A stretch of 64,000 nucleotides of DNA from Candidatus Zhuqueibacterota bacterium (GTDB lineage: Bacteria > Zhuqueibacterota > Zhuqueibacteria > Residuimicrobiales > Krinioviventaceae): contig JAFGKD010000094.1 of the NCBI GenBank assembly GCA_016928775.1, forward strand, positions 9,504-73,503, read 5' to 3'. Each line of letters starts with the position of its first letter. Within the stretch, counting starts at the first letter, position 1. Positions 1-7,194 of this stretch are shown here, one piece after another. Below the pieces are notes generated by a model. That model did no database searches, was not told the origin of the DNA, and saw nothing but the letters and a program-made list of their open reading frames with translations. The translations under genes were made by a program, and so were the position numbers.

Positions 1-1486
1 TTGTTTGAATAATGCCAGATGGCCATTCGACACGAATCTCAGTGATCGTGCTGGCATTCCCCAGGCCAAAATGGGCCAACAGGCTACTTTGGCCAAATCC
101 GGTTATGCCGGCAATTTCGCGCATTTGCTCAACGACCTCGGAATTTATTGTCGCCGTGAGCCGCACCGTGGCGCCAATACCGCTGCGGTTGGATGTTGTG
201 CCAGCAAGTTTTATTTGAATCCAGTGATTGGTGTTGCCGTTGTTGGGCTCATTATTCTTATAAATGAGATTGGCGTTTGATGTCGCGACCAGGATATCCA
301 AAAAACCATCTTTATTATAATCGGCCATGGCCGTGCCAAAGCAGAATCCCGGCCCGTCAATGACGCTACCGGTGAGTCGAGTAAAATATCCGCTGCCATC
401 GTTTATATAAAGCCGGTTGGCATAATCATACGTGGGATCTTCCATATCTCCGGGCGTGGAAACGAACATATCCAAATCGCCATCGTTATCGATATCACCC
501 CAGGCGCTGCCTTTGGAGATGATCGGCTCATCGACGATATCGCCGACTTGCGCCGGGCTCATTTTTGTAAACGTATCGCTGCCGTCGTTTCGGTAGAGAA
601 AATTTTCTTCCTGGGTGGTTTCCGAGGTACCGTAATTGGTGATATAGAGATCGAGATCACCATCATTGTCATAGTCCCCCCAGCTTCCCCCTTGCGACTC
701 GCCTTCATCGAATAGCGTCAGCTTGACGAACACATTGCTGCCGTCATTGCGCCACAAATAGTTTTTTTCGCGATTCGCGCCGCCGCCGCTGGCGGTAAAG
801 ATATCGAGGTCGCCATCACCATCATAATCCGCCCAGCCAAATCCGGCAATGCCGGTGGCATTTGAAGAGCTCACCAGGTCAATGCCGGTGATGCTCGTAA
901 AGGTTTTGTCACCATCGTTGGCATAGAGCGTATTTTCGATGGCGCCGGTATAGCCGTTGGTGACAAACAAATCCAGATAGCTATCGTTGTTATAGTCACC
1001 CCAGCCGACTGCCGCCGAATTTATCGCATCATCAACCGGCGGTCCGGCAGTAGTATTTTTTGTAAAAGTCCCACTGCCCGAGTTTTCGTAGAGACAATTT
1101 TGTTTCCCCGAACCAAGAAAGTTTTGAATTGATGACACGTAGAGATCGAGATCATTGTCATTATCAAAATCACCCCACGTGCAAAATCCTGAAATATAGG
1201 AATCGGTGACAATCGCGCCGGAGGTGATTTTTGTAAACGTATCACTGCCGTCGTTGCGGTACATAAAATTGGCCTGGCCAGTATAGTCAGAGCCGTTACA
1301 AATGTAAATATCCTCATCACCGTCGCCATCATAATCCGCCCAGGAGACACCATTTGAGGCGCCGGCGTCGCTACCGAACGGCGACAGTTCGACAAATGGA
1401 TCTTGAGCAAACAGAACGAATGGTGTGTAAAAAAGGTAAAGCGAGAGAATAAAAACCGCTTTTTTGATTGTGCAGAGCGTATGCAT
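1..1486 (-). CDS. Secreted FG-GAP/VCBS-repeat protein with an ASPIC/UnbV-like distal region (3' end cut by the window edge)
   Basis: Minus-strand ATG at 1486..1484, then a signal-peptide-like N-terminus MHTLCTIKKAVFILSLYLFYTPFVLFAQDP. My own translation shows at least six FG-GAP calcium-binding repeats (WADYDGDGDEDIY, WGDFDNDNDLDLY, WGDYNNDSYLDLF, WADYDGDGDLDIF, WGDYDNDGDLDLY, WGDIDNDGDLDMF). The distal stretch NHWIQIKLAGTTSNRSGIGATVRL resembles the ASPIC/UnbV domain. There is no stop codon before position 1. The ORF track does not list this gene; its entries 1021..1500(-), 5..280(+) and 12..218(+) are other frames across the same gene. Confidence 0.8.
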   Translation of the reverse strand, partial: MHTLCTIKKAVFILSLYLFYTPFVLFAQDPFVELSPFGSDAGASNGVSWADYDGDGDEDIYICNGSDYTGQANFMYRNDGSDTFTKITSGAIVTDSYISGFCTWGDFDNDNDLDLYVSSIQNFLGSGKQNCLYENSGSGTFTKNTTAGPPVDDAINSAAVGWGDYNNDSYLDLFVTNGYTGAIENTLYANDGDKTFTSITGIDLVSSSNATGIAGFGWADYDGDGDLDIFTASGGGANREKNYLWRNDGSNVFVKLTLFDEGESQGGSWGDYDNDGDLDLYITNYGTSETTQEENFLYRNDGSDTFTKMSPAQVGDIVDEPIISKGSAWGDIDNDGDLDMFVSTPGDMEDPTYDYANRLYINDGSGYFTRLTGSVIDGPGFCFGTAMADYNKDGFLDILVATSNANLIYKNNEPNNGNTNHWIQIKLAGTTSNRSGIGATVRLTATINSEVVEQMREIAGITGFGQSSLLAHFGLGNASTITEIRVEWPSGIIQT

Positions 1487-1822
1487 TTCGAATCTCCCAC
1501 AAGTTGACAAGTGTTAGCTCATTGATAAAAGCGCGTGATTTCCTCTGGAATGTCACTCATGTGGATGCAATGCTCGATGTGCACAACAAAGGTGCTTATG
1601 CTGAAAATTTTGAAATGATAAGGACGTGCTCCAAATATTGGGGACAAACTCGTCGATCAAAATTGCTGTTTAGCAGGTGATGATTTTTCCAGTCTCAGTG
1701 CGCATTCATGTCATCACCACAATTTACTGTCAGCGTTATCATTTTGCGTAAAGCAACGGTAATAAACAAAAAAAAGCAGCGCCATTTTCACGACGCTGCT
1801 CATTCTATTAAACCAAGGGCAC

Positions 1823-6200: not shown

Positions 6201-7194
6201 AGGTTTTATCCCAATCACCGTTATGCGCGCTTGGACCAGCGACAACGAGACCATGCAGCGCCGTACCCGGAACCGTCACGTCAAACTTGTAGAAATCGAC
6301 ATCGCCGGCAGGCATAATCGTGTGACCTGTCCTGACCGTGCCGTCAGTGAGCGTGTGTGCCTGGGGTTCCGTGTCATCCGGTTCGAATCCATCAGCACTG
6401 AGGAAACGCAATCCGATCTCATAGCTGCCGACAGTCGGCGGCGCCCAATATGGCGAAGATTCAACCGAGATGTAATAAATGCCGCTCTCCGGCACCTGGA
6501 TATTCACATAAGCATCCCAGCCGGTTCCGGAATCATCATCTTGCGCCAGGACGTTGCGATTCGGCAGATAGAGTGTGACAAATGGGTCCAGATCTGCTTC
6601 TGATGGTGGCAGGAGTTGATATGGATCGTCTTTGGAAGACCAGAACGGATTTGGCGTTACAGTGACGATTTCAATAATGTCACCCGCATTGGCGGAGAAC
6701 CAGAAAAAGTCAACATCGCCGGCCGGATAAACGTTATGTTTTACGGAGACAAAACCATCCACCAGCTTTTCGCCCTGATTATGCGAATTATCGGGCTCAA
6801 ACTCATCCGCTTCCATACCAGCGGCAGCGCGCGTTAAAACCGTGCCGCCATCTTTTTTCATAAAATTTGCAATAATAGCTTCTTTTTCAGCGCTGTATTT
6901 CTGTTCGATTTCATAATCTGCTTGCTTTTCTTCAAAAGCAGCATGACGTTCGTAGACCTGTGCCGGATCTTCTGCTTTGATATCCATCTTGGCATCCAGC
7001 ATCGCCGAACGAATAGCTTGAAATCGTTCTGCTCGATCAGCGCCCGTGATTGCAGGTGTTTCGTAGGCTTCCTCGAGCGTTCGAGGTAAATCCGCTTTTT
7101 GAGAGGATATCGTATCTGCTACAACAGAGAACAAACCAACAAAAAGCGTGAGTATGACGAGAAAGCTTGTCATAGCAGTTGTTTTGAATTTCAT
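3283..7194 (-). CDS. Giant secreted protein with repeated pre-peptidase C-terminal (PPC) domains, a discoidin/F5-8-type-C-like domain, and a T9SS type-A C-terminal sorting domain
   Basis: 1303 aa with signal peptide [26 protein letters not shown]. PPC-type repeats appear several times (EPDNS...[14 protein letters not shown], EPDDT...[14 protein letters not shown], EPDNL...[13 protein letters not shown]). A jelly-roll-like segment lies near the C-terminus ([11 protein letters not shown]...[15 protein letters not shown]...VQLVEFEV). The C-terminus [38 protein letters not shown]...[23 protein letters not shown] is about 65% identical to the sorting domain of the neighbouring Kelch protein. Confidence 0.75.
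   Translation of the reverse strand: [1303 protein letters not shown]

What the first reader, a model, noticed from the sequence alone, without database searches (positions are those of the whole stretch)
1..7194. T9SS-type sorting domains place this PKS-NRPS in an FCB-superphylum organism, probably not a classical Bacteroidia member
At least two of the three secreted proteins flanking the cluster end in about 80-aa type-A Por/T9SS sorting domains. Both begin with NYPNPFNP(K/T)TTI and end with G(I)YLYR(L/I)EAGDF(V/I)QT(H/N)RM(I/V)LLK. In my experience this NYPNPFNP variant is typical of Ignavibacteria, Calditrichota, KSB1/Zixibacteria/Latescibacteria-type genomes rather than Bacteroidia. Large sulfotransferase-bearing lipopeptide assembly lines are essentially uncharted in those lineages, which raises the chance that the product class is new. 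GC content and codon usage look uniform across the T9SS cargo genes and the cluster, so there is no sign of recent horizontal insertion.
Basis: inference. Interest (0 to 1): 0.6.

Follow-up and report, generated by a model that had tools for sequence, protein, structure and literature searches.

The report
T9SS cargo genes beside KSB1 lipopeptide cluster

Summary
Two minus-strand genes, 1823..3211 (Kelch propeller, 462 aa) and 3283..7194 (PPC/Big_1/F5_F8C protein, 1303 aa), each end in an 80-aa domain. It runs from NYPNPFNP(K/T)TTI to RM(I/V)LLK and scores 44.2 and 44.7 bits on TIGR04183 (cut-off 23).

The third flanking protein (2..1486, cut by the window edge) has no such domain. Its full-length form ends in a dockerin-like tail.

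The main interpretation is supported. All four window proteins looked up (both cargo proteins, the FG-GAP protein and the sulfotransferase) are 100% identical to NCBI MAG proteins labelled "candidate division KSB1 bacterium". NCBI now calls this Candidatus Zhuqueibacterota and places it in the FCB group.

- The closest sorting domains in GTDB genomes are mostly from Ignavibacteria, with Balneolales/Rhodothermales, Calditrichia, KSB1 and Chlorobi. Only 2 of 80 carry a Bacteroidia-order name.
- Tetranucleotide composition links the cargo genes and the megasynthases to each other and to KSB1 loci.
- A congeneric metagenome contig keeps the same cluster-to-cargo gene order.

Three caveats apply:
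- The sorting domain alone cannot separate KSB1 from Ignavibacteria.
- The sulfotransferase and MFS genes have clearly lower GC3.
- NRPS and PKS-NRPS richness in KSB1 has already been reported in surveys.

Low interest.

The parts
2..1486 (-). N-terminal 495 aa of a secreted FG-GAP/ASPIC-UnbV (CRTAC1-type) protein, cut by the window start. The full-length protein has no T9SS sorting domain.
   Evidence: Six-frame translation. Pfam FG-GAP_3 174 bits and UnbV_ASPIC 50 bits. It is 100% identical to P0191 (691 aa, locus tag EH223_06490, KSB1). P0191 has no PF18962 or TIGR04183 match. Dockerin_1 scores 16.4 bits, below the gathering score; the paralog P0197 scores 25.0 bits, above it.
1774..1801 (-). 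Terminator-like hairpin (12-bp stem followed by TTTTTTGTTT), 22 nt after the Kelch gene stop codon.
1823..3211 (-). Kelch beta-propeller protein of 462 aa, with an N-terminal signal peptide and a C-terminal T9SS type A sorting domain. NCBI also calls it from the second ATG, giving 453 aa.
   Evidence: Pfam Kelch families, up to 267 bits. Identical to RQW04802.1 and MBN1481956.1.
1826..2065 (-). T9SS type A sorting domain (CTD) of the Kelch protein, aa 383-462.
   Evidence: TIGR04183 44.2 bits against a cut-off of 23. PF18962 38.3 bits. Motif match. AlphaFold model of the C-terminal 91 aa (window 1826..2098), which contains this domain, is a beta-sandwich with pLDDT 91. Solved T9SS CTDs are among the best PDB matches.
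3218..3249 (-). Hairpin with a 14-bp stem between the 1303-aa gene and the Kelch gene.
3283..7194 (-). Secreted multidomain protein of 1303 aa: signal peptide, PPC pre-peptidase domains, Big_1/Invasin_D3 Ig domain, F5/8 type C lectin-like domain and a T9SS type A sorting domain.
   Evidence: Identical to RQW04803.1 and MBN1481957.1. A 90%-identical ortholog sits in the same position in L084.
3286..3525 (-). T9SS type A sorting domain (CTD) of the 1303-aa protein, aa 1224-1303.
   Evidence: TIGR04183 44.7 bits. PF18962 36.4 bits. Motif match.
7195..7828 (.). AT-rich intergenic gap of 634 bp separating the cargo genes from the cluster. It holds no tRNA or mobile-element gene.
7829..12313 (-). 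Cluster accessory genes: HetI-like PPTase (7829..8602), type II thioesterase (8614..9384), MbtH (9394..9609), MFS exporter (9699..11030) and a stand-alone sulfotransferase (11192..12313).
12369..63992 (-). Seven megasynthase genes. One PKS module (KS-AT-KR-ACP) is cut by the window end. It is followed by NRPS genes with 13 adenylation domains in total and one in-line sulfotransferase domain.

Best explanation
Region 1..7194 holds three ordinary secreted-protein genes of a KSB1 (Candidatus Zhuqueibacterota, FCB group) bacterium. They lie directly next to a native PKS-NRPS cluster.

Two of them are canonical type IX secretion cargo. Inferred from the T9SS model in Bacteroidota, the route would be:
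1. A Sec signal peptide takes the protein across the inner membrane.
2. The 80-aa C-terminal beta-sandwich domain is recognised by the T9SS translocon (SprA/Sov) and by the PorV shuttle.
3. The PorU sortase removes the domain, and the protein is either released or attached to the cell surface.

The NYPNPFNP...LLK form of the domain is the variant common in non-Bacteroidia FCB lineages. It therefore correctly signals the organism's broad affiliation. The cargo genes appear to be separate transcription units and are not demonstrably part of the biosynthetic pathway.

Shown here: domain identity and position, sequence identity to deposited KSB1 MAG proteins, compositional coherence, and conserved gene order in a relative.

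Inferred only: actual secretion, presence of T9SS machinery in this genome, and vertical inheritance of the cluster.
For: - **Domain identity.** TIGR04183 and PF18962 score above the curated cut-offs at the extreme C-terminus of both proteins. Hydrophobic N-terminal signal sequences are visible in all three proteins. The predicted CTD fold is a beta-sandwich with pLDDT 91. The best PDB matches include the PorU CTD (6za2), the mirolase CTD (8qb1) and translocon-bound substrate CTDs (8glk, 8gl6, 8glj).
- **Source.** The proteins are 100% identical to NCBI KSB1 MAG proteins on a 125,488-bp contig. That name sits in the FCB group in NCBI taxonomy, and the literature places KSB1 within FCB.
- **CTD neighbours.** The nearest CTDs in GTDB genomes are overwhelmingly non-Bacteroidia FCB. 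Tandem clusters of NYPNPFNP cargo genes are common in those loci.
- **Composition.** Tetranucleotide correlation between cargo genes and megasynthases is 0.90, higher than for any of 70 foreign loci (maximum 0.86). All four KSB1 loci rank in the top 7 of the 70.
- **Conserved order.** The congeneric contig L084 keeps the order NRPS-ST-MFS-MbtH-TEII-PPTase-CTD protein. Divergence is similar in cargo (90% aa) and in most cluster genes (84-97% aa; PPTase 61%).
- **Transcription units.** Terminator-like hairpins follow each cargo gene.
- **Mechanism.** The T9SS model is taken from PMC12398890.
Against: - No T9SS machinery gene (porK/L/M/N, sprA/sov, porU/V) and no phylogenetic marker gene lies in the window. 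The rest of the MAG could not be fetched.
- The KSB1 label is the depositor's.
- The best CTD matches (55-56% identity) are from Ignavibacteria or unclassified Bacteroidetes MAGs, not KSB1.
- Proteins that PGAP names as T9SS sorting-domain proteins also occur in MAGs labelled Chloroflexi and Poribacteria. The domain is therefore not an absolute FCB marker.
- The PDB fold matches are weak (no E <= 0.001) and the fold is a generic Ig-like sandwich.
Confidence: 0.88

Rival explanations
1. The contig is mis-binned or mis-labelled. The organism would then be another non-Bacteroidia FCB lineage, for example Ignavibacteria or Calditrichota, rather than KSB1.
For: - The top CTD matches are from Ignavibacteria or unclassified Bacteroidetes MAGs at 55-56% identity; the best KSB1 match is 55%.
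- The window has no marker genes.
- The best named non-self hit for the FG-GAP protein, after the same-contig paralog, is Calditrichaeota at 49%.
Against: - Every NCBI record of these proteins (RQW and MBN accession series) carries the KSB1 label, on a 125-kb contig.
- The tetranucleotide profiles of both cargo genes and megasynthases are closest to KSB1-labelled loci L031 and L041. All four KSB1 loci rank in the top 7 of 70, or in the top 7 of the 16 GC-matched loci.
Confidence: 0.08
2. The PKS-NRPS cluster is a recently acquired genomic island inserted next to native T9SS cargo genes. On this view the cargo genes say nothing about where the cluster evolved.
For: - GC3 is 0.43 for the sulfotransferase and 0.47 for the MFS gene. 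That is lower than every one of 500 length-matched megasynthase segments.
- The PPTase is HetI-like.
- The best TE-domain matches to the TEII protein are cyanobacterial or actinobacterial megasynthases at 40-49% identity.
- A 634-bp AT-rich gap lies at the boundary.
Against: - Megasynthases and cargo genes share GC3 and tetranucleotide signature (r = 0.90).
- There is no tRNA, integrase or transposase at the boundary.
- A congeneric genome (L084, 78-89% DNA identity) has the same junction, and cargo and most cluster genes have diverged to a similar extent.
- A more distant relative (L083) still keeps TEII and PPTase among CTD cargo genes.
- Ancient transfer cannot be excluded.
Confidence: 0.1
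3. The C-terminal domains are generic Ig-like or FlgD_ig-type modules that are not used as T9SS signals in this organism.
For: - T9SS machinery was not observed.
- FlgD_ig (PF13860) gives a weak overlapping hit.
- The fold is generic.
- Similarly annotated domains occur in MAGs labelled outside FCB.
Against: - The domains score about 20 bits above the TIGR04183 cut-off.
- They sit at the exact C-terminus and are paired with signal peptides.
- They are attached to unrelated passenger domains in the same genome: Kelch, PPC/F5_F8C, and two more on L085.
- The domains within this lineage are 57-67% identical to each other across different passengers, as expected for a shared sorting signal.
Confidence: 0.03

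Closest known systems
T9SS type A CTD cargo of Bacteroidota (e.g. P. gingivalis gingipains and PorU, T. forsythia mirolase, F. johnsoniae RemA/NucA/FspA)
   Same: - A Sec signal peptide plus a 70-90-aa C-terminal beta-sandwich domain matching TIGR04183/PF18962.
- The predicted fold superposes on the mirolase CTD (TM 0.67-0.69) and on translocon-bound substrate CTDs.
   Different: - The sequence variant is [12 protein letters not shown]...RMxLLK.
- Its nearest relatives come almost entirely from non-Bacteroidia FCB genomes.
- Sequence identity to the solved CTDs is 15-26%.
- Secretion has not been shown.
T9SS cargo of Ignavibacteria/Melioribacteraceae, Balneolales, Calditrichia and other KSB1 MAGs
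   Same: - The same [8 protein letters not shown] CTD variant at 46-56% identity.
- Cargo genes commonly lie in tandem.
- Homologous Kelch-CTD and FG-GAP-CTD proteins occur in these groups.
   Different: - CTDs within this lineage are more alike (57-67%) than they are to any outside genome.
- Here the cargo genes abut a 50-kb-plus PKS-NRPS cluster.
NRPS and PKS-NRPS clusters reported from KSB1/Zhuqueibacterota MAGs in genome-mining surveys (PMC11361885, PMC7472256, PMC13635244)
   Same: The same phylum and the same BGC classes (NRPS, PKS-NRPS hybrid). The products are uncharacterised.
   Different: Those surveys give counts and classes only. None of the passages I searched mentions sulfotransferases. 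I could not establish whether any of them includes this particular MAG.
Dockerin type I modules (Pfam PF00404) of cellulosomal and non-cellulosomal proteins
   Same: The third flanking protein, its paralog and a neighbouring S8 peptidase end in a duplicated GDVNxDxxxNSTDALIIL repeat. It matches Dockerin_1 at 16-25 bits.
   Different: - The P0191 score is below the gathering score.
- A conserved Cys-rich extension (GCYxxVTPCxGCNP) follows the repeat.
- No cohesin partner has been confirmed.

Membership tests
T9SS type A C-terminal sorting domain (TIGR04183 / PF18962) | Match to the family HMM above the curated cut-off | tested here: met
   TIGR04183 scores 44.2 and 44.7 bits against a cut-off of 23. 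PF18962 scores 38.3 and 36.4 bits against 27. The third protein (P0191) has no match at E <= 0.1.
T9SS type A C-terminal sorting domain (TIGR04183 / PF18962) | The domain lies at the extreme C-terminus of the protein | tested here: met
   The matches cover aa 384-459 of 462 and aa 1225-1300 of 1303.
T9SS type A C-terminal sorting domain (TIGR04183 / PF18962) | N-terminal Sec signal peptide on the same protein | tested here: met
   By inspection only, since no signal-peptide predictor was available. The N-termini are MNTLALKRLCFSVVFLTIIFAFLNSVILFA|DTW and [29 protein letters not shown].
T9SS type A C-terminal sorting domain (TIGR04183 / PF18962) | Ig-like beta-sandwich fold like the solved CTDs | tested here: met
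   The AlphaFold model has pLDDT 91.1 and six main strands. Foldseek against the PDB returns the PorU CTD 6za2, the mirolase CTD 8qb1 (TM 0.67/0.69) and substrate CTDs 8glk, 8gl6 and 8glj among the top 31 hits. E-values are only 1e-3 to 2e-2 and the fold is generic.
T9SS type A C-terminal sorting domain (TIGR04183 / PF18962) | Conserved lysine that contacts PorV (Lauber et al. 2024, as cited in PMC12398890) | tested here: inconclusive
   Both CTDs end in ...RM(I/V)LLK, and the consensus of 36 related tails is xKMxLLK. I did not map these lysines onto the F. johnsoniae structure-based alignment.
T9SS type A C-terminal sorting domain (TIGR04183 / PF18962) | T9SS machinery (gldK/L/M/N, sprA/sov, porV, porU) encoded in the same genome | not testable with these tools
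   The window holds none. The rest of the MAG could not be fetched. The supplements of the two KSB1 papers have no T9SS entries.
FCB superphylum, phylum KSB1 / Candidatus Zhuqueibacterota | Identity to a genome classified in that phylum | tested here: met
   The proteins are 100% identical to RQW04802.1, RQW04803.1, RQW04808.1, the MBN148195x series and EH223_06490, all labelled [candidate division KSB1 bacterium]. NCBI lineage is FCB group, then Candidatus Zhuqueibacterota.
FCB superphylum, phylum KSB1 / Candidatus Zhuqueibacterota | Placement by concatenated marker genes (GTDB-Tk) | not testable with these tools
   The window has no marker genes. The only genome-contig scan did not return the source genome.
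FCB superphylum, phylum KSB1 / Candidatus Zhuqueibacterota | Oligonucleotide composition like other members of the phylum | tested here: met
   All four KSB1-labelled loci rank in the top 7 of 70 foreign loci by tetranucleotide correlation (L031 0.86, L041 0.83, L070 0.73, L068 0.68; mean of all loci 0.46). Part of this is a GC effect. They are ranks 1, 2, 5 and 7 among the 16 GC-matched loci.
Class Bacteroidia (considered and rejected) | Closest sorting domains and closest homologs come from Bacteroidia | tested here: not met
   Only 2 of the 80 best CTD loci carry a Bacteroidia-order name (Cytophagia, Chitinophagales). Another 17 are ambiguous 'Bacteroidetes/Bacteroidota bacterium'. Named homologs of the cargo proteins come from KSB1, Calditrichaeota, Ignavibacteria, Marinimicrobia and Poribacteria.
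Hybrid PKS-NRPS biosynthetic gene cluster | KS-AT-ACP module plus C-A-T modules, with PPTase, TEII and MbtH accessories | tested here: met
   KS, AT, KR and ACP domains lie in 59715..63992. The other six genes carry 16 condensation, 13 adenylation and 13 PP-binding domains. PPTase, TEII, MbtH, MFS and sulfotransferase genes are present.

The most novel reading that the evidence does not exclude
The T9SS cargo genes may be long-term functional partners of the cluster rather than incidental neighbours. The junction PPTase / 1303-aa CTD protein is conserved in a congeneric genome (L084). In a relative whose Kelch ortholog is only 59% identical (L083), the TEII-PPTase pair sits between a Kelch-CTD gene and an S8-CTD gene. 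On this reading, surface-displayed lectin-like or propeller proteins would bind, process or confer self-protection against the sulfated lipopeptide. A linked possibility concerns the third, dockerin-tailed protein. It and its neighbours on the same contig might be displayed on a T9SS-anchored cohesin-like scaffold.
Probability: 0.1. Interest if true: 0.5.

Novelty: already known. Interest (0 to 1): 0.18.

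Why it matters
The practical value is bookkeeping. It attaches a large, uncharacterised 13-module PKS-NRPS with two sulfotransferase functions to an uncultured FCB phylum (KSB1/Zhuqueibacterota), and it shows the cluster is compositionally and syntenically at home there. This helps anyone prioritising the cluster for heterologous expression, for example in choosing a host, a PPTase and codon usage.

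It also shows that the NYPNPFNP form of the T9SS sorting domain is a usable quick marker for 'FCB but not Bacteroidia'. It cannot resolve the phylum.

Nothing about the sorting domains themselves is new. NCBI's pipeline already annotates both proteins as T9SS type A sorting domain proteins.

Tried and rejected
1. **Concatenated query.** I joined PPTase, TEII, MbtH, MFS and sulfotransferase into one 1400-aa query to save a capped homolog search. The word pre-filter favoured long megasynthases with TE domains and did not even return the self hits. It gave no usable best-hit taxonomy, and one of three searches was wasted.
2. **Fetching the 125-kb NCBI contig.** The look-up of encoding contigs with P0001 and P0122 returned only the 41-kb Logan contig of SRR13394437, or nothing. 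Marker genes and T9SS machinery therefore could not be examined.
3. **Genome scan.** The taxon tally is a sample, and the labels are depositors' names.
4. **Literature.** No paper in the library combines KSB1 with 'type IX secretion', and none mentions SRR13394437. A six-term search on T9SS plus KSB1 and neighbouring candidate phyla listed no paper containing 'T9SS'. The supplements of the two KSB1 papers contain no gld/por/sprA entries.
5. **Cohesin idea.** I tested the CTD protein next to the dockerin-tailed genes on L085. Pfam gave no Cohesin hit at E <= 0.1, and phmmer against PDB sequences found nothing at E <= 10. The idea is unconfirmed.
6. **Codon-usage null.** Length-matched RSCU comparison against megasynthase segments makes the cargo genes look slightly atypical. 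I discount this because megasynthase modules are paralogous and inflate the null. Comparison with foreign loci is the fairer control.

Full report
**What is in the region.** All genes in the window are on the minus strand.

Region 1..7194 contains three genes.

1. Gene 2..1486 encodes the first 495 aa of an FG-GAP/ASPIC-UnbV protein. It has an N-terminal signal sequence and its C-terminus lies beyond the window start.
2. Gene 1823..3211 encodes a 462-aa Kelch beta-propeller protein.
3. Gene 3283..7194 encodes a 1303-aa protein with PPC, Big_1/Invasin_D3 and F5/8 type C domains.

After a 634-bp AT-rich gap come the cluster accessory genes:
- a HetI-like PPTase (7829..8602)
- a type II thioesterase (8614..9384)
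- an MbtH gene (9394..9609)
- an MFS exporter (9699..11030)
- a sulfotransferase (11192..12313)

Seven megasynthase genes follow (12369..63992). They comprise one KS-AT-KR-ACP module, cut by the window end, and NRPS genes with 13 adenylation domains and one in-line sulfotransferase domain. 'PKS-NRPS with sulfotransferases' is therefore correct.

**Check of the observation.** From the N of NYPNPFNP to the terminal K is 80 aa in each (DNA 1826..2065 and 3286..3525).
- TIGR04183 scores 44.2 and 44.7 bits against a cut-off of 23. PF18962 scores 38.3 and 36.4 bits against 27.
- The back-translated NYPNPFNP pattern is found exactly twice in the window and never in 100 shuffles.
- The two domains are 61% identical to each other.
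- An AlphaFold model of the Kelch protein's C-terminal 91 aa, which contains the domain, was built on 36 related tails. It is a confident beta-sandwich (pLDDT 91.1).
- Its PDB matches are weak and generic, as expected for an Ig-like fold. They do include solved T9SS CTDs: PorU 6za2, mirolase 8qb1, and the substrate CTDs in the SprA-PorV complexes 8glk, 8gl6 and 8glj.
- Hydrophobic signal sequences are visible at all three N-termini, by inspection only.

**The third protein.** A homolog search with the truncated FG-GAP protein returned its full-length form, P0191 (691 aa, locus tag EH223_06490).
- It has no TIGR04183 or PF18962 match at E <= 0.1.
- It ends instead in a duplicated GDVNxDxxxNSTDALIIL repeat followed by a Cys-rich tail. 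Dockerin_1 scores 16.4 bits, below the gathering score. The same tail scores 25.0 bits in the same-contig paralog P0197 and 24.3 bits in an adjacent S8 peptidase.
- Exactly two of the three flanking proteins are therefore T9SS cargo.

**Where the sequence comes from.** The Kelch protein, the 1303-aa protein, the sulfotransferase and the FG-GAP protein are each 100% identical to NCBI MAG proteins. These are RQW04802.1/MBN1481956.1, RQW04803.1/MBN1481957.1, RQW04808.1/MBN1481962.1 and EH223_06490.
- All are labelled 'candidate division KSB1 bacterium' and lie on a 125,488-bp contig.
- PGAP already names the first two 'T9SS type A sorting domain-containing protein' or 'T9SS C-terminal target domain-containing protein'.
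- The same DNA is also assembled from run SRR13394437.
- NCBI taxonomy now lists that organism name as Candidatus Zhuqueibacterota bacterium, in the FCB group.
- Two phylogenomic studies place KSB1 as a monophyletic phylum inside the FCB superphylum (PMC9012183; PMC11683472).
- Reviews describe T9SS and its CTDs as confined to that superphylum (PMC12398890; PMC9170169).

**Does the CTD variant point away from Bacteroidia?** I scanned one genome per GTDB species with the two CTDs, using the patterns [ED][QN]NYPNPF and EAGDF[VI]QT. The 80 best of 594 confirmed matches had 46-56% identity. By record title they were:

| Group | Loci |
|---|---|
| Ignavibacteria-group | 41 |
| Ambiguous 'Bacteroidetes/Bacteroidota bacterium' | 17 |
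| Balneolales/Rhodothermales | 8 |
| KSB1 (one mislabelled Deferribacteres but named HK-STAS-KSB1-1) | 4 |
| Calditrichia | 3 |
| Chlorobi-type | 3 |
| Named Bacteroidia order (Cytophagia, Chitinophagales) | 2 |
| Neomarinimicrobiota | 1 |
| 'bacterium' | 1 |

- From my own knowledge, not checked here, Bacteroidia species far outnumber Ignavibacteria in GTDB.
- No Zixibacteria or Latescibacteria appeared.
- The best matches are Ignavibacteria rather than KSB1, so the domain indicates 'non-Bacteroidia FCB' and nothing finer.
- PGAP-named T9SS sorting-domain proteins also appear in MAGs labelled Chloroflexi CFX2 and Poribacteria among the Kelch homologs. The domain is therefore not an infallible FCB marker.

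**Independent support for KSB1.** I compared tetranucleotide profiles between the window and the 70 foreign loci of at least 7 kb.
- The mean correlation was 0.46.
- The four KSB1 loci rank in the top 7 (L031 0.86, L041 0.83, L070 0.73, L068 0.68 against the megasynthase region). They are ranks 1, 2, 5 and 7 among the 16 GC-matched loci.
- Named homologs of the FG-GAP protein are a KSB1 paralog (59%), Calditrichaeota (49%), another KSB1 protein (43%) and Ignavibacteria (about 42%).

**Horizontal insertion?**
- Cargo genes and megasynthases have similar GC (0.48-0.50 against 0.49-0.52) and GC3 (0.53-0.55 against 0.51-0.58). Their RSCU correlation is 0.87 and their tetranucleotide correlation is 0.90, above every foreign locus.
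- There is no tRNA gene in the window and no mobile-element gene at the junction.
- A Logan contig from another run (L084, SRR20069403) is 78-89% identical in DNA. It has the same order NRPS end-ST-MFS-MbtH-TEII-PPTase-1310-aa CTD protein. Amino-acid identities are 90% for the cargo protein and 84-97% for most cluster genes, with PPTase at 61%.
- A more distant relative (L083, with a Kelch ortholog at 59%) has the order [X-CTD]-Kelch-CTD-TEII(50%)-PPTase(44%)-S8-CTD.
- These results argue against recent insertion.

The sulfotransferase (GC3 0.43) and the MFS gene (0.47) are lower than all 500 length-matched megasynthase segments.

Terminator-like hairpins follow each cargo gene (1774..1801 and 3218..3249). 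The cargo genes are probably separate transcription units.

**'Uncharted'?** This is partly true.
- The Shark Bay mat study reported PKS and NRPS in KSB1 MAGs (PMC7472256).
- Expressed NRPS clusters from Zhuqueibacterota are reported from Arctic vent biofilms (PMC13635244).
- No product has been characterised, and none of the passages I searched mentions sulfotransferases.

**Verdict.** The two proteins are ordinary T9SS type A cargo of a KSB1/Zhuqueibacterota bacterium and are already annotated as such in GenBank. The neighbouring cluster looks native to that lineage.

Still untested are the presence of T9SS machinery in this genome and marker-gene placement of the MAG. Neither could be reached with the tools available.

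As a finding about sorting domains and taxonomy, it is correct but of low interest. Any real interest lies in the cluster itself and, marginally, in the dockerin-tailed neighbours.

Noticed in passing
window 2..1486 (C-terminus outside the window; full length = P0191); L085 1..5079: The third flanking protein ends in a dockerin-like double repeat plus a Cys-rich tail (GCYxGVTPCxGCNP) instead of a T9SS CTD. Its paralog P0197, on the same 125-kb contig, and an adjacent S8 peptidase carry the same tail. The next gene on L085 encodes a signal-peptide protein with an unassigned N-domain and an [11 protein letters not shown]. I guessed this could be a T9SS-anchored cohesin-like scaffold. Pfam Cohesin and PDB sequence searches gave no hit.
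   Followed up: partly
P0192-P0194 versus P0191: Orthologs of the FG-GAP protein in other metagenomes (62-68% identity) carry a Por_Secre_tail CTD where this genome has the dockerin-like tail. This suggests swapping of C-terminal targeting modules on one passenger.
   Followed up: no
window 52204..52851 (-), inside gene 47374..56310: An in-line sulfotransferase domain (Sulfotransfer_3, 97 bits, aa 1154-1369) is embedded in an NRPS protein that has 3 C, 2 A and 2 T domains. This is in addition to the stand-alone sulfotransferase at 11192..12313.
   Followed up: no
window 12369..26522 (-): The last NRPS protein (4717 aa) has 5 condensation domains but only 4 A and 4 T domains, and no thioesterase domain. 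It probably ends in a terminal C-type domain. The only TE in the window is the stand-alone type II enzyme.
   Followed up: no
window 9699..12313 (-): The MFS exporter and the stand-alone sulfotransferase have markedly lower GC3 (0.47 and 0.43) than all other genes (0.49-0.58). Both fall below 500 of 500 length-matched megasynthase segments. Both genes are nonetheless conserved (86% and 92% aa) in the congeneric contig L084.
   Followed up: partly
L083 1..11896 (Logan SRR23086375): In a more distant relative, a TEII-PPTase pair (50% and 44% identity to the window's) sits between a Kelch-CTD gene (59%) and an S8-CTD gene. An RNase H gene, a PBP1C-type gene and an alpha-2-macroglobulin gene lie downstream, and no megasynthase lies within 10 kb downstream. 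The upstream gene fragment also ends in a CTD.
   Followed up: partly
one search hits P0063, P0107, P0019: Kelch proteins that PGAP names as 'T9SS type A sorting domain-containing' occur in MAGs labelled Chloroflexi bacterium CFX2 and Candidatus Poribacteria, both outside the FCB group. Either these are mis-binned contigs or the domain has a wider distribution.
   Followed up: no
window 9394..9609 (-): A 71-aa MbtH-like gene lies between the MFS and TEII genes. The finding does not mention it, and it falls below the default ORF length filter.
   Followed up: yes
window 59715..63992 (-): The PKS gene is truncated by the window end. The KS match starts at profile position 92 of ketoacyl-synt, so the cluster continues beyond base 64000.
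   Followed up: no
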